NCBI GenBank assembly: GCA_943788195.1
Contig: CALSPH010000001.1
Span: 59,673-123,672, forward strand
DNA from: an uncultured Bacteroidia bacterium
GTDB lineage: Bacteria > Bacteroidota > Bacteroidia > NS11-12g > UBA955
DNA length: 64,000 nucleotides
Direction of reading: 5' to 3'
Shown here: one piece after another, positions 32,412 through 43,469 of the stretch
Layout of the letters: every line of letters begins with the position of its first letter
How positions within the stretch are numbered: the first letter of the stretch is position 1
Notes under the pieces: generated by a model
The model's input: only the letters and a program-made list of their open reading frames with translations
What the model was told of the DNA's origin: nothing
Databases searched by the model: none
Made by a program: the position numbers and the translations under genes

Positions 32412-34253
32412 ATGTGCGGAATTGTCGCTTACATTGGCCAACAAGAGGCCTACCCAATTATCATCAACGGCCTGAAGAGGTTAGAATATAGAGGATATGA
32501 CAGTGCAGGAATTGCATTGATGAATAACGGGATGAAGGTATATAAAACCAAAGGGAAAGTATCTGACTTGGAAGCCGTTTGCGAAGGACAAGATATTGTC
32601 GCTAATCTGGGAATGGGTCATACACGCTGGGCAACACATGGCGAACCCAATGATAATAACGCGCATCCACACCTTTCTCAATCCGGCAATTTATCAGTAA
32701 TTCACAATGGGATTATTGAAAATTATGCCACCATTAAAGAAGCGCTGGTTAAACGTGGGCATTCCTTCAGCAGTGACACGGATACGGAAGTATTGGTTCA
32801 TTTAATAGAAGACATTCAAGAAAGCGAAAATGTTGCTATCGATGTTGCAGTGCGAATGGCTTTAAGTCAAGTAGTTGGGGCATATGCCATCGTCATATTG
32901 GTTCAAAATGAACCTACAAAAATGATCGGAGCACGTAAAGGCAGTCCTATGGTTGTTGGGATTGGCAAAGACAAAAAAGAATTCTTCATAGCAAGTGATG
33001 CCACCCCATTTTTAGAGTATACCCGCGATGTAATTTACCTTAATGATAATGAAGTGGTGGTATTAAAGGATGATGATTTTGAAATAACCACCATTGATAA
33101 CGTTAAGAAGACGCCTTTCATTGAAAAGTTAGAAATCAATTTAGAGCAAATAGAAAAAGGAGGGTATGAACATTTCATGCTCAAAGAAATCTACGAACAA
33201 CCTAAATCAATTTTTGATTCAATTCGTGGTAGAATGGATATTCCAAGTTCAACATTTCACATGCAAAGCATCCGGGAATATGAAAACAAGCTTAAGAATG
33301 TGAACCGCTTAATTATTATTGGTTGTGGCACAAGTTGGCATGCGGGCTTGGTGGGCGAATACCTTTTCGAAGAATTTGCACGTCTTCCAGTAGAAGTTGA
33401 ATATGCATCCGAGTTTAGATATCGCAATCCAGTTATATACCCGGAAGACTTGGTTCTTGCCATTTCTCAAAGTGGAGAAACTGCAGATACCTTGGCTGCG
33501 ATGGAACTTGCTAAGTCGAAAGGTGCAACTGTATTTGGCCTCTGCAATGTAGTGGGATCATCTATTCCACGTATGAGCGATGCAGGAGCATATACCCATG
33601 CTGGACCAGAAATTGGAGTAGCTTCTACTAAAGCTTTTACAGCCCAAGTATCGGTTCTTACACTGCTTGCATTAGCAGTAGCAGAACTAAGAGGAACCAT
33701 TACCAATGAGCGATTACAAATTTATTTAAGAGAGCTGGAAGCAGTGCCTAAATTGGTGGAAAAAGCACTTAAAGCGAATGATCATATTGTTAAAATTGCT
33801 GAAGAGTTTAAAGATGCACATAATTTCCTTTATTTAGGACGTGGTGTTAGCTTTCCAGTTGCCTTAGAAGGAGCGTTGAAATTAAAAGAAATTTCATACA
33901 TTCATGCAGAAGGTTATCCTGCAGCAGAGATGAAACATGGACCCATTGCCTTGATAGATGAGAATATGCCAGTAGTTGTTATAGCACCGAGAAAAGGAAT
34001 CTATGAAAAAGTGATTAGCAATATCCAAGAGGTTAAAGCGCGAAAAGGAAGAATTATTGCAATTGTCTCAGAAGGTGACACCAAGATCAAAGAAATAGCC
34101 GATTATGTCATAGAAATACCAGAAACAGAAGAAGCCCTGAGCCCTCTAATCTCAACCATACCCTTACAGTTATTGGCTTACCACATTGCTGTAATGCGCG
34201 GCTGCAATGTAGACCAACCAAGAAATTTGGCAAAATCAGTTACAGTGGAGTAA
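32412..34253 (+). CDS. glmS: glutamine-fructose-6-phosphate aminotransferase (isomerizing)
   Basis: An MCGIVAYIG N-terminal nucleophile, two SIS domains, and a length of 613 aa. Confidence 0.95.
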   Translation: MCGIVAYIGQQEAYPIIINGLKRLEYRGYDSAGIALMNNGMKVYKTKGKVSDLEAVCEGQDIVANLGMGHTRWATHGEPNDNNAHPHLSQSGNLSVIHNGIIENYATIKEALVKRGHSFSSDTDTEVLVHLIEDIQESENVAIDVAVRMALSQVVGAYAIVILVQNEPTKMIGARKGSPMVVGIGKDKKEFFIASDATPFLEYTRDVIYLNDNEVVVLKDDDFEITTIDNVKKTPFIEKLEINLEQIEKGGYEHFMLKEIYEQPKSIFDSIRGRMDIPSSTFHMQSIREYENKLKNVNRLIIIGCGTSWHAGLVGEYLFEEFARLPVEVEYASEFRYRNPVIYPEDLVLAISQSGETADTLAAMELAKSKGATVFGLCNVVGSSIPRMSDAGAYTHAGPEIGVASTKAFTAQVSVLTLLALAVAELRGTITNERLQIYLRELEAVPKLVEKALKANDHIVKIAEEFKDAHNFLYLGRGVSFPVALEGALKLKEISYIHAEGYPAAEMKHGPIALIDENMPVVVIAPRKGIYEKVISNIQEVKARKGRIIAIVSEGDTKIKEIADYVIEIPETEEALSPLISTIPLQLLAYHIAVMRGCNVDQPRNLAKSVTVE

Positions 34254-34318
34254 GGTTATGGGATAAGAAATGTAACTCCGGACTCATATTAGTATATTTC
34301 TCTGTATCAATAACTTCT

Positions 34319-34636
34319 ACAAAACTATGGGAATCCAATTATTCGGATTACCAACAGTATTTGTACGACAGAATTAAGGGTTTTATTGAGAATTCTGTAA
34401 CCCCTATTGGTTATCGTCGTATTTCAAAAATCTTCAATGATGAGGGGTTAAAAACACCTCGTGGTACTTCATTCACAAACTCCAAAGTACATTCTATGTA
34501 CAAAAAGGGGTTGATTCGGGAAGAAAGAATGAATCGTGAAGATATAGTTGAGGTATCTCCTGTTACTATTGAATTGATAATACACCCAATTTTAGGTAGG
34601 ATACGTCGTAGTCCCTATGAGAAGAGATTTACCTAA
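34319..34636 (+). pseudogene. remnant of a large serine recombinase/resolvase (internal 'recombinase' domain fragment only)
   Basis: YQQYLYDRIKGFIENSVTPIGYRRISKIFNDEGLKTPRGTSFTNSKVHSMYKKGL matches the ...IA.xLNexGixTPRG..W..stV..IL segment of serine recombinases. There is no catalytic N-terminal domain, and the open frame begins inside the glmS 3' end. Confidence 0.5.
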
Positions 34637-35312
34637 AAACTCTAACCACCTTCAACCACTTCAATACTCGTTTGAACATCTCTCAGAAAATAAATTGAGA
34701 AATACTGTGATATTTTAGTCGTTTAATGTTTCAGAACCATATTTATAGATAACCTAAGTGTTCCAATCATAGGGTTCAAACACTTTTACCCCTTTATCCA
34801 ACAACTCACATCGGGGAGGGAAAGGATTAGGGAGAAGTCGGTTAGTAATCTGTAGGATTGAAATAATATCCGAACATAACGGATGAGGTTTCACCGATAG
34901 GGTTAAAAATGGTTATGGTATAAGATAGATATGGGGGATTCAAACTGACTGGTCTAATCGAAATCTATAACTGAAGAATGAGTTCATTCATTAACAGATA
35001 CTCAAATCTGTAAGGGGTTTGGTGTATCTAATTGATAACAGGTTATTAAATAATAACTGGAATGTTGAGGATTCACACTACGTATGAATCACTCAACGAT
35101 GAGATGATTCTGATGAAATCAGAACCACTCATCATAGGATGTTTAAATACTGAAAGATAAAGGAGTTAATATGAAACAAACACAAGAACAATTACATAAT
35201 GAACTAATGGATAAACTTAGTGAGTTGTATACCGTCAGCAAAAAGTGCACTAATTAGGTTAATTATTTAATATAGAGGTTTTAATAAATTTATAACCTTA
35301 AAAGAAATCTAA

Positions 35313-35660
35313 ATGACGAACAAAAAAAGCACAAGTTCATTAATCAGTGACTTAAAACGAAAGACAAGAAAGAAGTATTCATCAGAAGAAAAGATCCGCA
35401 TTATTATCCAAGGCATTCGGGGAGAGGACTCCATAGCGGAGTTATGCAGAAAAGAAGGCATAAGCCAGACCAACTATTACAAATGGAGTAAGGACTTCAT
35501 GGAAGCAGGAAAACGCAGATTAGCAGGCGATACAATGCGTGAGGCTAATACTTCTGAAGTTCAAGAGCTCAAAGGAGAGAACCATTGCTTGAAGGAGCTT
35601 GTAGCTGAACTCTCCTTAGAGGTGAGAACTTTGAAAAAAAACGTAAATGGAGACGACTAG
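35313..35660 (+). CDS. IS3-family transposase OrfA (HTH/leucine-zipper DNA-binding part)
   Basis: 115 aa and basic, with an HTH (IAELCRKEGISQTNYYKWSKDF) and a coiled-coil tail. Confidence 0.8.
   Translation: MTNKKSTSSLISDLKRKTRKKYSSEEKIRIIIQGIRGEDSIAELCRKEGISQTNYYKWSKDFMEAGKRRLAGDTMREANTSEVQELKGENHCLKELVAELSLEVRTLKKNVNGDD
35636..35642 (+). promoter_or_regulatory. programmed -1 ribosomal frameshift heptamer A_AAA_AAC at the orfA/orfB overlap
   Basis: The heptamer is correctly phased X_XXY_YYZ in the orfA frame. orfB (35675-36649) lies in the -1 frame. Translation after the slip reads ...KKRKWRRLVKKKYMHYSQ into OrfB. Confidence 0.6.
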
Positions 35661-35674
35661 TAAAGAAGAAGTAT

Positions 35675-36649
35675 ATGCATTACAGTCAGCAAGAAAAATA
35701 CGAGTTGATTCAACTTGTAGAACAATCCGATTTAGGGGTTATCCGAACCTTAAGGGAACTCAAAATTAATAAAACTACCTTCTACAACTGGTACAGCGCT
35801 TACAGCAAACAGGGCTATGAAGGTCTTGCGCGCAAGCCCAGTAAAAGACAAGGTTCATGGAACAGGATTAATGAATTAGACCGTGATAAGGTAGTTGAGA
35901 TAGCCTTAGAGAAGCCAGAACTGTCTCCTAGAGAAGTCGCTTGGTACATTACTGATACCTATAGCTATTATATCAGTGAGTCGAGTGTATATCGTATCCT
36001 AAAAAGCAATGGACTTATCTCCGTTCCATCTTTTAGAATAATGAGTGCCTCAGACAGTTTTCATGATAAAACAACACAGGTCAATCAAATGTGGCAGACT
36101 GACTTCACTTACTTCAAAATCTATGGTTGGGGGTGGTATTACCTCTCAACAGTACTGGACGATTACTCTAGGTTTATTGTTAACTGGAAGTTGTGCTCAA
36201 CCATGAAGGCAGAAGATGTTAAGAATACCTTGGATGAGGCAATATTGGCTACCGAAGTACCTGAGAGTAACAGACCTAGGCTTTTATCAGATAACGGATC
36301 TTGTTATATATCCCATGAGCTTGCAGCGTACCTTCAAGTAAAAAAGATGAAACATGTTAGAGGTAGACCCTTGCATCCTCAGACCCAAGGCAAAATAGAG
36401 CGTTATCACAGATCCATGAAAAATGTGGTAAAACTAGACAACTATTTTAGTCCTGAACAACTGGAAAGAAAACTAAAAGAGTTTGTGGAGTATTACAACT
36501 ATAAACGATACCATGAATCCTTACAAAACCTAACGCCTGCTGAGGTCTATTATGGAAAAGGGCAACTCAAACTCAAACAAAGAAATCAAACCAAAATCAA
36601 AACATTAAAAGCTAGAAAAAAACAGTATCATAAATTTAACCTAAATTAG
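35675..36649 (+). CDS. IS3-family transposase OrfB (DDE/RNase-H-like integrase catalytic domain)
   Basis: WQTDFTYF...LSDNGSCYIS...YHESLQNLTPAEVY shows D, D(35)E spacing and the conserved K/R typical of the rve integrase core. Confidence 0.85.
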   Translation: MHYSQQEKYELIQLVEQSDLGVIRTLRELKINKTTFYNWYSAYSKQGYEGLARKPSKRQGSWNRINELDRDKVVEIALEKPELSPREVAWYITDTYSYYISESSVYRILKSNGLISVPSFRIMSASDSFHDKTTQVNQMWQTDFTYFKIYGWGWYYLSTVLDDYSRFIVNWKLCSTMKAEDVKNTLDEAILATEVPESNRPRLLSDNGSCYISHELAAYLQVKKMKHVRGRPLHPQTQGKIERYHRSMKNVVKLDNYFSPEQLERKLKEFVEYYNYKRYHESLQNLTPAEVYYGKGQLKLKQRNQTKIKTLKARKKQYHKFNLN

Positions 36650-36768
36650 CACCAACTCTATCTTACGTTTTTAACTCAAAAGTGCAAATTTCGCTGAAGA
36701 CATACACAGAACCCGAGTTTGAGTTTATAAGTAGAAATTATATATTTACAAAGTTAATTCGAACAAAA

Positions 36769-37246
36769 ATGAAAAACTTAATAATTTTTTCTTTATTCGT
36801 CCTATCAAGTTGTGGCAATAAAATAGATAACAATCAGGCTCAATCGACTGAAGTAAAAAAACTATAGTCAACCACTATTACAGAATGAATACTTAGGAAA
36901 CTATCACGGAATTCAGCCAAGTTACATTATGAAAAATCAATATGGTGACGACATGATAATTGGCGGTCAAAAGGTTTCAGTTCCTTCCATTGATTTTAAG
37001 TTTCTACTAAAAGAGGATGGCATTGCTGGTTTGCAACAAACAAACCTTGATGATATTAGCAGAGTTTATTATAATGGCACTCTAAAAATACTTAATGAAG
37101 ATGTCAATTCAGTATCTGTGGAATGCTCGCTAAGCGATGGTGAATATTCTAAACCTAAATACACTTTAAAAATAAATAAATCAGATAAAACTGCTGTTTG
37201 CAAGGGAGCAAATGAACCTGAATTCAGCATAAAGAAACAACACTAA
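36769..37246 (+). pseudogene. small lipoprotein split by a frameshift inside an A7 homopolymer (36854-36860)
   Basis: The signal and lipobox MKNLIIFSLFVLSSCG ends at a stop at 36865-36867. The ORF 36929-37246 stays open upstream to 36857 in another frame. Removing one A joins them into a single ~159-aa lipoprotein. Confidence 0.45.
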
Positions 37247-37261
37247 AAACTGACGCAAATA

Positions 37262-38633
37262 ATGAAAAAAGTAATATCAAATATAAGTTTCATAATAATT
37301 GTTATAATTTTAGGTGCAACATTAAATGGTTGTAATAATCGAGAGACTAATCATCCTTTTAAATCAAAGGAAAATAAAGACCTTTTAAATCTCCCCAGCA
37401 TCACCTCAGAGCATCCCCTTTTTCAGCTTAGGATTGACTCTCTTATAAATATTAAAAGTGACACGGGTGTAATAAGCTTTAAATCCGAACTTAACTTTTT
37501 CCAAAGTGGATTCCCTCTCTACTCTCTTGACACAACAAATACACTTGAAGGGCTTTCGCGTATATACGTTTATGAGGATAACAGACTTGACTCTATAATC
37601 ATTCATCACAAATCTGGTAAAGTATTTGAAAACGTACTATATGCTTCTCAAAAATTAATAGTTACAACAGTTGGCAGTCCTCAGGGGTATGTTTTTGAAC
37701 CAGAAACCGAAGAGTATTCTTATATTCATTCTGTAGAATTTTGCTTACAACACATTGATAAAAATCTCAATTTGTCAACGGAAATATTTATCACAGATAA
37801 ATATTTTGATGGTGACAGACAAAATCCTTATTCTAACAAAGATTATTTATTTAATAACCTACCTGAATTCAATGATTTAGAGCAATTAACAAATATTGAT
37901 AATTCTAAAATTATTGATTATGCAGCAAATCATGGGGGGGGAATATTTCTATGATAGAGAATCTAATTCATATAAAAAACAACCATATAATATCAGAAAT
38001 CTTGTGCTCGAAAAAGCTACAGACAGTGTTCTCGTATTTAGAACATTAGATTATAATTACCTGACGGGGGAAGATTTCAGGAAAAGAAAAAACATATCGA
38101 TGGAATTTGCATGGAATGCATCTGCACCTGCTTGGATTGAGAGGTTCCCAGAAGATATAAGTACTACAGATATTATATTAGAATATCCTCAAGGGGCCAG
38201 CAATATGGAAGCTTACGAAAATCAACATATAAAAAAAACTGAAACTGAAATAGATTTAACAGTAGATGTAAAAGTTTATCAATCAAGTATTATAGATAGA
38301 TATAAATCTTGGATTAGTTGGAAAGAAAGAGAAAGAGAAAGAGAAAAAAGACGACAAGAAATAAACGATAATAGTAATAACTCAAATAAGTCTTCAACGA
38401 GTAACAACATAGATGGACGGTATTCTTATGAAGACCAGACTTCTACATATAGATTAACAGTTTCAAATGGAAGATGGAGTTACAGTACAGCTATAAAAAT
38501 ATCTGGAGTCGCTCAAACAGATTATTCTTCAGGAACAGAACGAAATGGAGTGTTATACAAGGGAGGAGCAAGTGTAGGAAACGTAAATGGAAATTGCGCT
38601 CAAGTAGGAAGTAGTCCACAGATGTGTAAGTAA
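37262..38633 (+). pseudogene. lipoprotein of ~457 aa split into 230-aa and 245-aa ORFs at a G8 homopolymer (37934-37941)
   Basis: The N-terminal part carries signal and lipobox LGATLNGC. The frames switch exactly at the poly-G run. The C-terminal part contains a KEREREREKRRQE tract encoded by (GAAAGA)n and an Asn/Ser-rich region. Confidence 0.45.
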
Positions 38634-38836
38634 AAAAAACATATCCCCAAGAAGGCATTAGAATTACTCTTAAAACTATCTGAATTTGCTTTACCTAAGC
38701 TCAGAGCTATAGAGGTTAATAATGAGTCAGAGGAGGCTAAGCATACCTCATTAGATATTAATATAATTGATACTGGGGTGCCTTTTGCGAGTTGTGAGGC
38801 GGATGTGGTTGATTAACCTTCCATTTATTAGCATCT

Positions 38837-39920
38837 TTATATTTTAAGCACCCTAAAGTGCTGTTTAAATTCATCTCCGATGCTGATGAAATACATTCCA
38901 TCTGGCAGACCTTTTAGATTTATTTCTGTGTCTTCTCCTTCAATCACATCAGACAATACTTCTACTCCTGCGCTAGTGTATATTGTAATGTTTTGTCGTA
39001 TTAAGTTAGTTGATGCTTTAATACGTATTCTACTTGTAGTAGGATTGGGATAAATCGTAAACTCAATATTAGGATACTTATAAATACTGGCACTATTACT
39101 TGTATCCACCAATGTCGGCATCCAAGTCAAGCCAATACTATCACCCCACAGATATTCAGCTAATTCAGGATGGTCAATAAAAGGATTGCGGTTGTGCTGG
39201 TAAAAGCTATCGATGATGTTATTCCTATTACGTTCCCAGTTGCTAACTGTATCAATCCTATTCCAATGAAGGAGAGTGATTTAAGCGAGCTTGTAAGGGA
39301 CTTTGGTCAGCATTATTAAGTAATGTATTAGTCAACTCTAAATCAGGCTCAGAGCCTTCTCCTTCGTATCTGACAGCCATATAAAATATCATTCTAGCTA
39401 CATCTCCTTTGACTGCGTCAGGTGGTTCAAATGTCCATAAATCAGCATCACGTTTAGACCCTGTATTAAAGCCATTATCTATTACATCTACACAAGTAAT
39501 GCAAGTGTCAAAATTTCTATTATTCCTTGTGGAGTTGACACTAACATCGCAAGGTCTTAGGTGATGTACATCTGTTCCTGCACCATTGCTTGTACCAAAG
39601 TCTCCTCTAGATTTTGCCCAAACGTGTTCCCGACTCCAGCCAGCAGCACTGTTGTATTCTTGTGCAGCATCTACACTTCTCCCTGAATATAGTAGGATTA
39701 CATTATTTGCATTTGCTGTATCTCTATCCGTATGCTTTAGTATGTCCCACACATCTGTCGATGATGAGGTATAAGGGAACTCTGTATGATTTTTGATTAT
39801 TTGGTTCAGTTCATACTTCAATGAATCATCAGACTTTTTATGAGCAGATAGATAGTAAGTACTGTCCTGTGCAGAAAGCAGGTTTGAGATAAGGAGTAAA
39901 GCGAATACAATAAATTTCAA
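38837..39920 (-). pseudogene. secreted endonuclease I-family DNase with a T9SS type-A C-terminal sorting domain, disrupted by a frameshift near 39283-39310
   Basis: The upstream ORF (39258-39920) has a signal peptide and EndA/NucM motifs (EHVWAKSRG, DVHHLRPCDVSVNSTRNNRNFD, MIFYMAVRYEG). The domain continues in another frame (TLLHWNRIDTVSNWERNRNNIIDSFYQHNRNPFIDHPELAEYLWG) and runs into a Por_Secre_tail CTD that ends VLKI. Confidence 0.65.
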
Positions 39921-40015
39921 GATGTAAATATATTATTAAATCTATTCTATTACCAATTGACTAGCTGACTAAACGAATTTAAACCCTAAAAGATTACACT
40001 AATATCCAAAGATGG

Positions 40016-40540
40016 GTGTTTAAATTTTCACCATTTGTGGAATCAAACATGAACAAACGGAAGAATGTAGTTGGTAATAGTTGGAGAATGGACGAGACCT
40101 ACATCAAGGTAGCAGGTAAGGACAGATACTTATATCGAGCTGTAGATAAGCAAGGAAATACGGTTGACTTCCTGCTAACTAAACGGAGAATGAAGGGGTC
40201 AGCACAGAAGTTTCTGAACAAAGCCATAGGCAACAATGGAAAACCAAGACTGATCAATATTGATAAAAGTGGAGCAAATACACAGGCCATACGTATTGTG
40301 AATCAATATAGCTTGACCTTCAAGAAAATCAGAATCAGGCGAGTTAAGTATTTAAACAATATTGTTGAGCAAGACCATCGGACGATTAAACGACGGATAG
40401 CAATAACTACAGGATTCAAGGAGTTCGAATCCGCTCAAAGAACACTAGCAGGAATAGAAATCATAAACATCATTAGAAAGAATCAAATAGTAAATCCGAG
40501 GAGAAGTTGGTTTGCAACCTTTAAGTCTTTGGCTGCTTAA
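40016..40540 (+). pseudogene. IS6-family (IS26-like) transposase remnant; the N-terminal ~60 aa are missing
   Basis: WRMDETYIKVAGKDRYLYRAVDKQGNTVDFLLTKRR...INIDKSGANTQA...EQDHRTIKRR aligns with the IS6/IS26 Tnp DDE core. No IS6 inverted repeats were identified. Confidence 0.65.
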
Positions 40541-40947
40541 TGAAATGATAAATCAGCTACTTTTGGAAACCAATGGGATTAATGCGACAGAACCAAAAAA
40601 CTTTCCTTTGTGTGAAATTAAAATCCATTGCAGACAAGTATCAAACAAAGTTAACTAGACCAGCTTTTTTTAATAAAGACTTTAACTTAAAGTGGTGATG
40701 CGCCAAGTTCCTCGAAATCTTCACGTTTAATCGAATTGATAATGGATAAATCATTTACTTTTAGTAAAACTGACCTAACTCCATTGCCGTTTTTATTGTT
40801 GATGGTAAAATACAATTTGAGTTTAGATTTGGTTTGTTTGATTTTCTCTGGAGGTAATTTTGTATACCGTCAGCAAAAAGTGCACTAATTAGGTTAATTA
40901 TTTAATATAGAGGTTTTAATAAATTTATAACCTTAAAAGAAATCTAA

Positions 40948-41295
40948 ATGACGAACAAAAAAAGCACAAGTTCATTAATCAGTGACTTAAAACGAAAGAC
41001 AAGAAAGAAGTATTCATCAGAAGAAAAGATCCGCATTATTATCCAAGGCATTCGGGGAGAGGACTCCATAGCGGAGTTATGCAGAAAAGAAGGCATAAGC
41101 CAGACCAACTATTACAAATGGAGTAAGGACTTCATGGAAGCAGGAAAACGCAGATTAGCAGGCGATACAATGCGTGAGGCTAATACTTCTGAAGTTCAAG
41201 AGCTCAAAGGAGAGAACCATTGCTTGAAGGAGCTTGTAGCTGAACTCTCCTTAGAGGTGAGAACTTTGAAAAAAAACGTAAATGGAGACGACTAG
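40948..41295 (+). CDS. IS3-family transposase OrfA (copy 2)
   Basis: Identical to the 35313-35660 protein. Confidence 0.8.
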   Translation: MTNKKSTSSLISDLKRKTRKKYSSEEKIRIIIQGIRGEDSIAELCRKEGISQTNYYKWSKDFMEAGKRRLAGDTMREANTSEVQELKGENHCLKELVAELSLEVRTLKKNVNGDD

Positions 41296-41309
41296 TAAAG
41301 AAGAAGTAT

Positions 41310-42284
41310 ATGCATTACAGTCAGCAAGAAAAATACGAGTTGATTCAACTTGTAGAACAATCCGATTTAGGGGTTATCCGAACCTTAAGGGAACTCAAAA
41401 TTAATAAAACTACCTTCTACAACTGGTACAGCGCTTACAGCAAACAGGGCTATGAAGGTCTTGCGCGCAAGCCCAGTAAAAGACAAGGTTCATGGAACAG
41501 GATTAATGAATTAGACCGTGATAAGGTAGTTGAGATAGCCTTAGAGAAGCCAGAACTGTCTCCTAGAGAAGTCGCTTGGTACATTACTGATACCTATAGC
41601 TATTATATCAGTGAGTCGAGTGTATATCGTATCCTAAAAAGCAATGGACTTATCTCCGTTCCATCTTTTAGAATAATGAGTGCCTCAGACAGTTTTCATG
41701 ATAAAACAACACAGGTCAATCAAATGTGGCAGACTGACTTCACTTACTTCAAAATCTATGGTTGGGGGTGGTATTACCTCTCAACAGTACTGGACGATTA
41801 CTCTAGGTTTATTGTTAACTGGAAGTTGTGCTCAACCATGAAGGCAGAAGATGTTAAGAATACCTTGGATGAGGCAATATTGGCTACCGAAGTACCTGAG
41901 AGTAACAGACCTAGGCTTTTATCAGATAACGGATCTTGTTATATATCCCATGAGCTTGCAGCGTACCTTCAAGTAAAAAAGATGAAACATGTTAGAGGTA
42001 GACCCTTGCATCCTCAGACCCAAGGCAAAATAGAGCGTTATCACAGATCCATGAAAAATGTGGTAAAACTAGACAACTATTTTAGTCCTGAACAACTGGA
42101 AAGAAAACTAAAAGAGTTTGTGGAGTATTACAACTATAAACGATACCATGAATCCTTACAAAACCTAACGCCTGCTGAGGTCTATTATGGAAAAGGGCAA
42201 CTCAAACTCAAACAAAGAAATCAAACCAAAATCAAAACATTAAAAGCTAGAAAAAAACAGTATCATAAATTTAACCTAAATTAG
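41310..42284 (+). CDS. IS3-family transposase OrfB (copy 2)
   Basis: Identical to the 35675-36649 protein. Confidence 0.85.
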   Translation: MHYSQQEKYELIQLVEQSDLGVIRTLRELKINKTTFYNWYSAYSKQGYEGLARKPSKRQGSWNRINELDRDKVVEIALEKPELSPREVAWYITDTYSYYISESSVYRILKSNGLISVPSFRIMSASDSFHDKTTQVNQMWQTDFTYFKIYGWGWYYLSTVLDDYSRFIVNWKLCSTMKAEDVKNTLDEAILATEVPESNRPRLLSDNGSCYISHELAAYLQVKKMKHVRGRPLHPQTQGKIERYHRSMKNVVKLDNYFSPEQLERKLKEFVEYYNYKRYHESLQNLTPAEVYYGKGQLKLKQRNQTKIKTLKARKKQYHKFNLN

Positions 42285-42342
42285 CACCAACTCTATCTTA
42301 CGTTTTTAACTCAAAAGTGCAAATTTCGCTGAAGACATACAC

Positions 42343-42819
42343 TCTGGTGATCAAAATGATTATGTTGCTGTTTCCATGGAACACTGGGGGACGAATTTAA
42401 ATCGTTATATCAACAAAAAAACTACCATCGGCTTAGCTATAGAGTCTGTTGAAGACAGTACCAAAATGAACATTAAGGTTTTTGTACGCGGGAATGGGTT
42501 TGACAACTCTAAATCCTATAAATTGACCGTTTATATTATTGAGGACAATATTAGTACAGACAATCAAGTTGGAAAACCAGCAGGTTTCAAACATCAAATG
42601 GTGTTAAGAGGCAGTCTTACCAATGCGATTGGGGACGACATTAAGTTAAAAGAAAATGTGACCTTGGAAAAGGAATACTCGTTTAGTTTAAGCGGTTCCT
42701 TTGTTGTAGACAACCTAAAAATATTGGCCTTTGTAAATACAGTTGGTGGAACAACATCTGATCGATTAATTCATAACGCACAACAAGTAAAGGCAGGTAA
42801 AACAGCTAATTGGGATTAA
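42343..42819 (+). pseudogene. C-terminal portion of an Omp28-related outer-membrane lipoprotein, truncated at its 5' end by IS3 copy 2
   Basis: The reading frame is open right from the IS boundary (SGDQNDYVAVSMEHWG...). LTVYIIEDNI...HQMVLRG resembles the Omp28 family. No signal peptide or start remains. Confidence 0.4.
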
Positions 42820-43469
42820 TTCTTTTCTAGAATCCGATATAACAATTCGGTCATTATTACGCTAAAGATGGTTAAAGCTAGCATGATTAGCCACTCTCTA
42901 GAAACTTGTTGAAATGCCAAACCGTCAATCGCTTTTTTACTGGAAGCTAAACCCACAATTAATATGGGTATTATCACCGGCAAGCTAATTACAGGTATAA
43001 TAAGAAAAGCACTTCCTACACTTTTTACTAAGGCAGACATTAAAGTAAATGTACTCGACAAACCTAAACCAGCAATAACCACTGTAATTAGATAAAGCAC
43101 ACTGCTACCTTCAAATCCATTGATTAACACATTAAAAAATAGCCAAATTAACACAGTAATTAGCACCATTAGGCCAAAATTATAAATCAATCTTGCTCGG
43201 ATAATTACTTGACTTGGTATGAGTTGAGCATAATAATTTTGCAGCCCTGGGGATTCTGAAATAAAGCCTTTTGTAATGGCATTTAAGGATGAGAAAACTA
43301 AAATAATCCAGAACAAACTATTCTGAATAGCCAGGTTCATTGCGGGAATCGCCAGATACACAATAAATGTAGCGGTTAGAATCTGAATCAAGATTCCAGC
43401 GAACGTAAATTTGTTCCGCCATTCCAACGTTAAATCCTTTTTAATTACGGTGATAATTTGTTTCAGCAA
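42816..43469 (-). CDS. ABC-2/CcmB-like six-TM permease (heme-exporter-B-like)
   Basis: 217 aa and very hydrophobic. The N-terminus MLKQIITVIKKDLTLEWRNK resembles CcmB-family permeases. Confidence 0.4.
   Translation of the reverse strand: MLKQIITVIKKDLTLEWRNKFTFAGILIQILTATFIVYLAIPAMNLAIQNSLFWIILVFSSLNAITKGFISESPGLQNYYAQLIPSQVIIRARLIYNFGLMVLITVLIWLFFNVLINGFEGSSVLYLITVVIAGLGLSSTFTLMSALVKSVGSAFLIIPVISLPVIIPILIVGLASSKKAIDGLAFQQVSREWLIMLALTIFSVIMTELLYRILEKN

What the first reader, a model, noticed from the sequence alone, without database searches (positions are those of the whole stretch)
35226..42342. Two 100% identical, directly oriented IS3-family copies bracket a 4.15-kb segment (composite-transposon-like, or a recombination substrate)
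Copies at 35226-36707 and 40861-42342 are identical over 1482 bp, which indicates recent transposition or gene conversion. Neither copy has a clean 3-4-bp target-site duplication, and copy 2 truncates an Omp28-like gene. That pattern is consistent with IS-mediated adjacent deletion or recombination between copies, not two simple insertions. Direct repeats of this length make the intervening 4.15 kb (lipoproteins, T9SS nuclease, IS6 remnant) prone to excision or duplication.
Basis: seen in the sequence. Interest (0 to 1): 0.55.

Follow-up and report, generated by a model that had tools for sequence, protein, structure and literature searches.

The report
Twin insertion sequences in variable island
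Two identical copies of a small jumping gene (an IS3-type insertion sequence) really do bracket 4.15 kb of accessory genes in a strain-variable island of an uncultured Bacteroidia bacterium. Comparison with sister strains shows the copies mark deletion and exchange breakpoints, so this is ordinary, well-understood genome plasticity.

Summary
Window 35225-36707 and 40860-42342 are identical over 1483 bp. The element itself is 1481 bp (35226-36706; 40861-42341), in direct orientation around 4154 bp.

- **Family:** it is an IS3-family IS. It has orfA/orfB with a conserved A8 slippery run, a DDE triad and TGT...ACA inverted repeats. Its OrfB scores almost as well against the IS481 model.
- **Reality of the structure:** the two-copy arrangement recurs in independent assemblies, one of them contiguous across both copies.
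- **Setting:** it lies in an island between glmS and omp28/ccmB that has at least four different fillings among strains with identical GlmS.
- **Copy 2:** a sister strain (L111) has the same left junction but 1505 bp more DNA at the right end (a resolvase gene plus the omp28 5' end). The omp28 truncation is therefore a deletion starting exactly at the IS tip.
- **Copy 1:** it cuts an 86-codon gene after codon 18-19, and the rest of that gene is absent from the window.
- **Caveat on TSDs:** their absence is not diagnostic here. None of 62 insertion sites of this IS clade in more than 10 genomes shows a TSD.
- **Not found:** no evidence that the unit moved as a composite transposon, and no single-IS deletion product.

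Interest is low to moderate.

The parts
32412..34253 (+). glmS (context). All island variants diverge immediately after its stop codon.
   Evidence: Pfam GATase_6 plus two SIS domains. blastn breakpoints fall at 34252-34256 against L011, L013 and L017.
34254..35225 (+). Left arm of the island, a remnant of an integrative element. It holds a 91-aa ORF (34361-34636) with a weak Recombinase-domain hit and a non-coding stretch. It ends with the first 18-19 codons (35172-35225) of an 86-codon gene that is cut by IS copy 1.
   Evidence: Pfam Recombinase E=0.0098. Homologous stretch in L083 with an intact 86-aa ORF followed by a short ORF that looks excisionase-like by reading. tblastn finds only codons 1-19 anywhere in the window.
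35226..36706 (+). IS copy 1 (1481 bp). IRL 35226-35250 and IRR 36682-36706 (18/25 match). orfA 35313-35660. A8 slippery run 35634-35641. orfB 35675-36649, with its frame open from 35633.
   Evidence: Pfam HTH_Tnp_1, HTH_32, rve, rve_3. NCBIfam IS3. D143/D206/E242 in OrfB.
36707..40860 (.). Bracketed 4154-bp cargo. Lipoprotein genes at 36770-37246 and 37262-38633 (both split by homopolymer frameshifts in the window). T9SS endonuclease I gene at 38837-39920 on the minus strand (split). IS6-family transposase remnant. A 263-bp spacer.
   Evidence: Pfam Endonuclease_1. Intact 158-aa, 456-aa and 360-aa (Endonuclease_1 + Por_Secre_tail) genes in L018. Frameshift positions. Lipoboxes read from the sequence.
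40016..40540 (+). IS6-family transposase remnant lacking about 50 N-terminal residues. An IS6-type terminal repeat-like sequence (reverse complement GGTTCTGTCGC) ends near 40594.
   Evidence: NCBIfam transpos_IS6, 162.6 bits, profile 50-202/202. Pfam DDE_Tnp_IS240. Terminal sequence by inspection.
40861..42341 (+). IS copy 2 (1481 bp), identical to copy 1. orfA 40948-41295, orfB 41310-42284. Its right tip is a deletion junction.
   Evidence: Comparison with L111.
42342..42819 (+). 3' part of omp28. The first 341 nt of the gene and its upstream region are missing. An ORF from an internal ATG runs 42376-42819.
   Evidence: Pfam Omp28 31-169/171. NCBIfam 125-248/264. Window 42341 aligns to L007 5538, and the full gene is L007 5198-6016.
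42816..43469 (-). ccmB (context), the right-hand core flank shared by all variants.
   Evidence: Pfam CcmB in gene tables. 99.9% identity to all variants.

Best explanation
**What it is.** Two full-length, apparently functional copies of one 1481-bp IS3-family insertion sequence sit in direct orientation inside a strain-variable genomic island. The island lies between glmS and omp28/ccmB in an uncultured Bacteroidia species.

**How it works.**
- The transposase OrfAB would be made by -1 slippage on a conserved A8 run (inferred).
- Neither copy is a simple insertion. Each marks a rearrangement junction.
- *Shown:* the right junction of copy 2 arose by loss of exactly 1505 bp starting at the IS right tip. 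The lost DNA is a small serine-resolvase gene plus the omp28 5' end, and it is still present in sister strain L111.
- *Inferred:* that loss was an IS-adjacent deletion. It came either from an intramolecular attack by the IS end on nearby DNA, or from a second insertion followed by IS-IS recombination.
- *Shown:* copy 1 truncates an 86-codon gene of an older integrative element, and the rest of the gene is gone.
- *Shown:* left and right junctions are inherited independently among strains.
- *Inferred:* the IS copies therefore serve as portable homology through which island modules are exchanged. The present pair is also a substrate for deletion or duplication of the 4.15-kb cargo.
For: **Repeat and anatomy**
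- Repeat and true ends.
- IS anatomy and family. The A8 run is conserved in all 62 clade members, including those of a MAG from a separate project.

**The structure is real**
- L018/L108 is a 22-kb contig from another sample that spans both copies. L015, L016, L001/L110 and L002/L112 are partial but consistent.

**Four fillings of one locus in strains with identical GlmS and CcmB**
- A: L011/L012.
- B: L013/L014/L105/L107.
- C: the window and L018.
- D: L111.

**Deletion at copy 2**
- L111 1-11129 = window 53468-42341, and L111 12635-15683 = window 42341-39293. The 1505 bp between them are absent from the window.
- L111's IS has the window's left junction and variant B's right junction.
- The omp28 5' end is nowhere in the window.

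**Copy 1**
- Only codons 1-19 of the orf86 homologue are present.

**The same pattern elsewhere for this IS clade**
- The L003 site lacks 4.9 kb relative to relative L102.
- Pfam domains are cut at IS boundaries in L056, L075, L080, L036 and L025.
- Nested copies lack the rest of the target IS.

**Published precedents**
- IS150 adjacent deletions without TSD (PMC11708052).
- Insertions accompanied by one-sided deletions (PMC3281130).
Against: - The direction D to C is inferred from omp28 being intact in D. No reads or time series exist.
- A transposase-made adjacent deletion cannot be told from 'second insertion plus homologous recombination' using the final sequence.
- The origin of the two-copy layout itself is not resolved. 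It could be transposition of a second copy, or integration of an IS-plus-cargo circle.
- No excised or single-IS form was seen in about 20 contigs.
- No empty site for any copy could be obtained.
- Perfect identity of the two copies may partly be a consensus-polishing artefact.
Confidence: 0.75

Rival explanations
1. **Composite transposon.** The IS-cargo-IS unit (35226-42341) transposed as one piece into this locus, using the outer IRL of copy 1 and the outer IRR of copy 2.
For: - Two intact, identical, directly oriented copies with both outer ends present.
- The cargo has lower G+C (0.31) than the core and contains an IS6 remnant.
- A homologous endonuclease gene sits next to a same-clade IS in another species, L099.
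Against: - The outer flanks are not contiguous in any variant. The left flank is a truncated small gene and the right flank is the middle of omp28.
- L111 shows copy 2 with a different right flank but the same cargo side. The right junction therefore changed after the cargo was in place.
- The unit was found only at this locus.
- There is no TSD on the outer flanks.
Confidence: 0.06
2. **Two independent simple insertions by an IS that never makes TSDs.** The gene truncations are older or unrelated events.
For: - No TSD at 62 of 62 sites of the clade.
- At most 1-2 weak candidates in 8 sites of plasmid relatives.
- A zero-TSD insertion would look exactly like this at the tips.
Against: - The flanks of each copy are not contiguous. 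The omp28 5' end and orf86 codons 20-86 are missing.
- L111 shows that the missing 1505 bp were still present next to the same IS copy.
- The same non-contiguity is seen at other sites.
- As far as I know, no DDE transposase is known to join both ends without a stagger (own knowledge).
Confidence: 0.1
3. **Integration of an IS-plus-cargo circle.** A circular molecule carrying one IS and the cargo (a translocatable unit or small replicon) integrated next to a resident IS copy. Integration was by homologous recombination or cointegrate formation. This would explain direct repeats without TSDs.
For: - Direct orientation, identical copies, no TSDs.
- Junctions are inherited independently among strains B, C and D.
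- The cargo contains the remains of another IS, and part of it shows 3.6% divergence between strains.
Against: - No form with a single resident IS at this position was found.
- No circle or tandem junction was found in any contig.
- It does not by itself explain the truncation of omp28 or of orf86.
- It is compatible with the best explanation rather than exclusive of it.
Confidence: 0.2
4. **Assembly artefact.** A single IS copy was duplicated, or two strain haplotypes were mis-joined through the repeat.
For: - The window comes from assemblies that appear error-prone at homopolymers.
- Several assemblies break inside or beside the island.
- Perfect identity of the copies may reflect polishing.
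Against: - The same order, glmS - left arm - IS - cargo - IS - omp28 fragment - ccmB, is contiguous in an independent sample (L018/L108, 99.1% identity over 12.3 kb).
- All four junctions recur in other samples.
Confidence: 0.03

Closest known systems
IS3 family insertion sequences (e.g. IS150, IS911, IS2)
   Same: - Size of 1.2-1.55 kb.
- orfA (HTH_Tnp_1 plus a coiled C-terminus) and orfB (rve DDE domain) in the 0 and -1 frames, with an A-rich slippery run.
- TG...CA terminal inverted repeats.
- End-to-end match of OrfAB to NCBIfam transpos_IS3 above its cut-off.
- Relatives on plasmids are annotated 'IS3 family transposase'.
   Different: - OrfB has its own ATG and an IS481-like N-terminus (HTH_23/HTH_32). 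It matches the IS481 model end to end, 4-19 bits below the cut-off.
- The 3-5 bp TSD typical of the family is absent at 62/62 sites.
- No significant RNA structure downstream of the slippery run.
IS481 family
   Same: - OrfB alone aligns to the whole transpos_IS481 model (2-284/284).
- TGT...ACA ends.
- More distant relatives show long repeats of about 8 bp: L081 CTTTTTAT and L096 CTTTTTAA. IS481-family TSDs are 4-15 bp (own knowledge).
   Different: - The score is below the curated cut-off: 205-220 against 224.
- A separate upstream orfA with a frameshift site is present, which IS481 members lack (own knowledge).
IS-adjacent deletions and insertion-with-deletion events
   Same: The deletion begins exactly at an IS tip, the IS is retained, and no TSD is left. 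This matches the 1505-bp loss next to copy 2.

Published cases:
- IS150 in the E. coli long-term evolution experiment (PMC11708052).
- ISPmar2 and ISPve1 in Paracoccus (PMC3281130).
   Different: In those studies such events are a minority, about 17% for IS150. Here every evaluable copy of the clade looks like one.
Composite (compound) transposons and IS26-type pseudo-compound transposons or translocatable units
   Same: Two directly repeated identical IS copies bracket cargo. The individual copies have no TSDs, as is common for IS26 arrays (own knowledge; the IS6 review PMC7986276 was listed but not read).
   Different: - The transposase is IS3-type, not IS6-type.
- No TSD on the outer flanks.
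- The unit was not seen at any other site.
- No circle junction was found.
IS copies without direct repeats in the Bacteroidota symbiont Amoebophilus asiaticus (PMC3196728)
   Same: In a Bacteroidota genome, 83% of full-length IS copies from many families lack direct repeats.
   Different: There it was read as a sign of inactivity and age. Here the copies are nearly identical (at most 2 SNPs), have intact ORFs, and differ in position between strains.

Membership tests
IS3 family | Transposase matches the family profile above the curated threshold. | tested here: met
   OrfAB scores 229.1 bits against a cut-off of 160, covering profile 1-368/369. OrfB alone scores 182 bits.
IS3 family | Two consecutive ORFs in frames 0 and -1 with an A-rich slippery motif that gives an OrfAB fusion. 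| tested here: met
   orfA 35313-35660. The orfB frame is open from 35633. The A8 run at 35634-35641 is conserved in 62 clade members. Frameshifting itself was not tested. No significant downstream structure was found (z = -1.46).
IS3 family | DDE catalytic triad in an rve (integrase core) domain. | tested here: met
   Pfam rve E=6e-25. D143, D206 and E242, with spacings of 63 and 36.
IS3 family | Imperfect terminal inverted repeats ending 5'-TG...CA-3', and a length of 1.2-1.55 kb. | tested here: met
   TGTATACC...GACATACA, 18/25 matching, 1481 bp.
IS3 family | 3-5 bp target-site duplication. | tested here: not met
   Neither window copy has one. Across 62 unique sites there was one 3-bp match (1.4 expected by chance), none of 4-7 bp, and no cross-copy or inverted matches. 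This may reflect secondary rearrangement rather than the chemistry of the transposase.
IS3 family | Copy-out-paste-in transposition through a circle with abutted ends. | not testable with these tools
   No abutted IRR-IRL junction in any held contig. Testing this needs outward PCR or reads.
IS481 family | Transposase matches the family profile above the curated threshold. | tested here: not met
   205.4 bits (OrfB) and 220.4 bits (OrfAB), against a cut-off of 224.
IS481 family | A single transposase ORF without an upstream orfA or a frameshift. | tested here: not met
   A separate orfA (HTH_Tnp_1) and a slippery run are present.
Composite transposon | Two copies of one IS, with intact outer ends, bracket the cargo. 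| tested here: met
Composite transposon | A TSD on the outer flanks of the whole unit, or an empty site joining those flanks. | tested here: not met
   The outer flanks are gtgagt and ctctgg. In other strains the flanks are not contiguous.
Composite transposon | The same unit is found at more than one genomic location, or mobility is demonstrated. | tested here: not met
   The cargo was found only at this locus in 134 held loci. Only the endonuclease gene recurs next to a same-clade IS, in L099.

The most novel reading that the evidence does not exclude
The whole IS clade may transpose in a way that does not leave target-site duplications. The clade is IS3-type with an IS481-like OrfB, and it is widespread and multi-copy in marine Bacteroidota. 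Its insertions would normally be coupled to loss or rearrangement of adjacent DNA. Possible routes are obligatory intramolecular or replicative events, uncoupled attack by the two ends, or insertion at breaks. If so, each copy is a scar of a deletion or exchange rather than a simple insertion. That would make this clade a dedicated driver of island turnover and gene loss.
Probability: 0.25. Interest if true: 0.6.

Novelty: new member of a known kind. Interest (0 to 1): 0.3.

Why it matters
For this locus the result is a clean, strain-resolved natural example of three things: an IS-adjacent deletion that truncates an outer-membrane lipoprotein gene, IS copies acting as exchange points between island modules, and an integration hot spot next to glmS. 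All of this is textbook biology.

The wider point is more useful. A very common IS of marine Bacteroidota shows no TSD at any of 62 sites and usually has non-contiguous flanks.

- **Practical consequence:** TSD-based IS annotation and 'simple insertion' callers will misjudge this element.
- **Biological consequence:** if the behaviour is intrinsic to the transposase, the element would be a notable agent of gene loss in these genomes.

Tried and rejected
- **Empty sites.**
  - The AtpG neighbour of the L003 site returned only 81-93% relatives. This showed 4.9 kb missing but gave no nucleotide-level empty site.
  - A look-up across window 2.6-24 kb found no polymorphic IS.
  - The neighbour of the L009 site gave a non-syntenic relative.
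  - Two metagenome scans, for an empty variant-B site and for its right flank alone, found nothing.
- **TSDs hidden by recombination.** Left-right, right-right and left-left matches between copies are at chance level. Only part of each genome's copies was sampled.
- **Displaced TSDs.** Shared 4-6-mers within 12 nt of the tips are at chance level.
- **Target motif or IR-like target.** No positional signal and no similarity of the flanks to the IRs.
- **Contiguity by ORFs.** 11 of 56 joined flanks give an in-frame open frame, against 3-4 in the other frames. On inspection these join unrelated or truncated proteins.
- **'Res-site hunter' idea.** Serine-recombinase genes lie within 3 kb of 4-5 of 62 sites. 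This is too few, and better explained by the IS residing in mobile islands.
- **RNA and regulatory features.** No Rfam family or tRNA in the window. No excess of promoter- or terminator-like sites. No significant frameshift-stimulating fold.
- **Circle or tandem junctions.** None.
- **Deletion by microhomology between the two ATCAAAA 7-mers.** Rejected. That route would keep atatccgt next to the IS, whereas the junction is exactly at the IS tip.

Full report
**Observation.** A scan at the repeat offset of 5635 bp gives one uninterrupted identical run, 35225-36707 = 40860-42342 (1483 bp). Similarity collapses to background right outside it (the repeat finder reports the first 300 nt). I compared these two copies with nine other copies fetched from public assemblies. 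The shared sequence always starts TGTATACC and ends GACATACA. The element is therefore 1481 bp (35226-36706 and 40861-42341), and the extra T and C are chance flank matches. Both terminal repeats occur only at these positions in the window, with none expected by chance. The bracketed segment is 36707-40860 (4154 bp).

**What the element is.**
- orfA (35313-35660, 115 aa) hits HTH_Tnp_1.
- orfB (35675-36649, 324 aa) hits HTH_23/HTH_32, rve and rve_3.
- The orfB frame is open back to an A8 run (35634-35641) near the end of orfA. A -1 slip there gives a 445-aa OrfAB.
- The catalytic residues are D143, D206 and E242 of OrfB. The terminal repeats match at 18 of 25 positions.
- OrfAB matches NCBIfam transpos_IS3 end to end at 229 bits (cut-off 160). 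The IS481 model scores 220 bits, just below its cut-off of 224.
- Relatives on alphaproteobacterial plasmids (53-56% identity) are annotated 'IS3 family transposase'.
- The A8 run is conserved in every clade member examined, including those of a Urechidicola MAG from a separate project.
- No significant RNA fold follows the run.

So this is an IS3-family element at the IS3/IS481 border, with intact reading frames.

**The structure is real and sits in a hypervariable island.** I looked up the exact GlmS and CcmB proteins in public assemblies. This returned about 20 contigs of the same species from different samples. The core flanks are 99.9-100% identical. Everything between the glmS stop (34253) and omp28 differs.

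| Variant | Loci | Content between glmS and ccmB |
|---|---|---|
| A | L011, L012 | a 556-aa large serine recombinase gene, then an omp28 fragment that starts at window 42413 |
| B | L013, L014, L105, L107 | a different serine recombinase, a resolvase, a restriction-type nuclease, one IS copy nested against a truncated copy, an SH3 protein, a third IS copy, a 213-aa resolvase, full-length omp28 (272 aa) |
| C | window; L018/L108 | the arrangement of the window |
| D | L111 | cargo, IS, 213-aa resolvase, full-length omp28 (the contig ends in the cargo) |

- L018/L108 is contiguous across both IS copies in an independent 22-kb contig.
- L015, L016, L001/L110 and L002/L112 cover parts of variant C with the same junctions.
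- An assembly artefact is therefore very unlikely, although no reads could be examined.

**History of copy 2.** The IS in L111 has exactly the window's copy-2 left junction (ggaggtaattt|TGTATACC). Its right junction is that of variant B (GACATACA|atatccgtatcaaaac). L111 1-11129 aligns to window 53468-42341, and L111 12635-15683 aligns to window 42341-39293. The 1505 bp between them are missing from the window. They comprise the resolvase gene, a spacer and the first 341 nt of omp28. Nothing resembling the omp28 5' end exists elsewhere in the 64 kb.
- Full-length omp28 must be ancestral, so variant C derives from a D-like form by a deletion with one end exactly at the IS tip.
- That is the signature of an IS-adjacent deletion. 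A second insertion followed by IS-IS recombination gives the same product.
- A microhomology deletion between the two ATCAAAA heptamers near the endpoints is excluded. It would have kept atatccgt next to the IS.

**History of copy 1.**
- Its left flank ends in an ORF with a good ribosome-binding site: MKQTQEQLHNELMDKLSE, then the IS.
- A homologous region in another species (L083) shows the intact gene of 86 codons. It is followed there by a short ORF that looks excisionase-like by reading, and by a resolvase gene.
- Only codons 1-19 are present anywhere in the window. The right flank of copy 1 is instead the upstream region of a lipoprotein gene.
- Copy 1 is therefore also at a breakpoint. 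The 970 bp between glmS and copy 1 are the stump of an older integrative element.

**Exchange through the IS.** B and D share the right junction but have unrelated left flanks. C and D share the left junction but differ on the right. Left and right junctions are thus inherited independently. This is what recombination within the IS, or repeated one-sided events, would produce.

I found no single-IS product of recombination between the two window copies, no IS-cargo circle junction, and no second location of the unit. Only the endonuclease gene recurs, at 87% nucleotide identity, 35 bp from the left end of a same-clade IS in another species (L099).

**Why the missing TSDs are not diagnostic.**
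- A scan of one genome per species found more than 560 relatives, and 80 loci were kept (63-87% OrfB identity). They come from marine Bacteroidota genomes and many are multi-copy.
- Together with the same-species loci this gives 62 unique insertion sites with both ends defined.
- Exact flank matches: length 1, 15 observed (17 expected); length 2, 4 (5); length 3, 1 (1.4); lengths 4-7, none. There is one 8-bp duplication in a 71% relative, L081.
- Displaced repeats, matches between different copies, and inverted matches are all at chance level.
- There is no target motif and no resemblance of the flanks to the IS ends.
- Eight sites of the plasmid relatives give one 3-bp match and one displaced 4-bp match.

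**The flanks are usually non-contiguous as well.**
- The L003 site lacks 4.9 kb that a related genome (L102) carries between the same neighbours.
- Pfam domains are cut at the IS boundary with no continuation on the other side. Examples: FecR against a hydrolase lacking its N-terminus in L056, a GT2 cut at 108/168 in L075, serine recombinases in L025 and L080, and an AAA_15 lacking its first half in L036.
- All nested insertions lack the remainder of the target IS.

**Precedents from the literature.**
- IS150 adjacent deletions without TSDs make up about 17% of IS events in evolved E. coli lines. De novo insertions without TSDs accompany large rearrangements (PMC11708052).
- In Paracoccus trap-plasmid work, ISPmar2 (IS3 family) and ISPve1 (IS21 family) inserted with one-sided deletions (PMC3281130).
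- In the Bacteroidota symbiont Amoebophilus asiaticus, 83% of full-length IS copies lack direct repeats (PMC3196728).

**Identity of the copies.** All same-species copies differ by at most 2 SNPs. The two copies of one assembly are identical to each other (window A244/G698; L018 A244/A698). The orthologous copy differs between assemblies. This fits gene conversion, but equally fits consensus polishing of repeats. Relative to L018, the window carries one extra base in three homopolymers and one further single-base insertion. These split the cargo genes. Other assemblies show similar scattered frameshifts in core genes. 'Identical, hence recent' should therefore be read cautiously.

**Verdict.** The main interpretation, that these are breakpoints of adjacent deletion and recombination rather than two simple insertions, is supported by independent comparative evidence. 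The TSD argument is not informative for this IS, and the composite-transposon label is only descriptive.

The locus is a good natural example of known IS-driven island plasticity, so it is a new member of a known kind and of modest interest. The one less ordinary thread is the clade-wide absence of TSDs together with non-contiguous flanks. Whether that is intrinsic to the transposase remains open. I could not obtain an empty site or compare with ISfinder.

Noticed in passing
L013 11822-12089 and 13481-13748 (variant B, next to glmS): A 268-bp inverted repeat (99.3% identity) brackets the 570-aa large serine recombinase gene. One arm lies in the gene's 3' end and the other lies upstream of its start. 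This may be an invertible segment.
   Followed up: no
window 34253/34254: All four island variants diverge exactly after the glmS stop codon. In variants A and B a large serine recombinase gene ends against or overlaps the glmS 3' end. This looks like an integration hot spot for serine-recombinase elements.
   Followed up: partly
window 42350-42356; L007 4041-4047; L006 4040-4047; L003 4037-4042: Right flanks of several junctions in this species carry (T)GATCAAA(A) at +8/+9 from the IS tip. The old and the new right flank of the copy-2 deletion both have ATCAAAA at +9 to +15. The motif is absent from the 60 sites of relatives. Unexplained.
   Followed up: partly
window 36855, 37934, 38632, 39278: Relative to L018, the window has one extra base in three homopolymers (A, G, A runs) and one extra G. 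These split the 158-aa and 456-aa lipoprotein genes and the 360-aa Endonuclease_1 + Por_Secre_tail gene. They are probably long-read consensus errors rather than pseudogenes. Similar scattered frameshifts occur in core genes of other assemblies.
   Followed up: partly
window 38700-40503: The endonuclease and IS6-remnant part of the cargo differs from strain L018 by about 3.6% substitutions. The rest of the cargo and the core flanks differ by about 0.2% or less. Several assemblies break in this stretch.
   Followed up: no
L099 1432-2549 (B_MB356, OX044357.1): A homologue of the cargo's T9SS endonuclease gene (87% nucleotide identity) lies 35 bp from the left end of a same-clade IS in a different species. 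This hints that the gene and the IS travel together.
   Followed up: partly
L083 1377-4353 (AE_MB266): This region is homologous to the window's left arm. It has the intact 86-aa ORF, an 81-aa ORF that looks excisionase-like by reading, and a resolvase gene. The resolvase gene's 3' end is cut by another copy of the IS.
   Followed up: partly
L094, L096, L100 (65%-identity IS type in OX044357.1); L081: More distant relatives do show repeats. L081 has a clean 8-bp TSD, CTTTTTAT. In three of six copies of the 65% type the repeats (CTTTTTAA, CTAACA, AACAAC) are displaced 0-3 nt from the IS tips, as if a few donor-flank bases were carried along.
   Followed up: partly
IS positions 244 and 698 (window 35469, 35923 and 41104, 41558): Copies within one assembly are identical. 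The same copy differs between assemblies at these two positions. This indicates gene conversion or repeat polishing.
   Followed up: partly
L013 15524-18033 (= L006 1525-4032): A full IS copy abuts positions 1-1027 of a truncated copy in the same orientation. The rest of the truncated copy is missing. This is another right-side loss next to an IS tip.
   Followed up: partly
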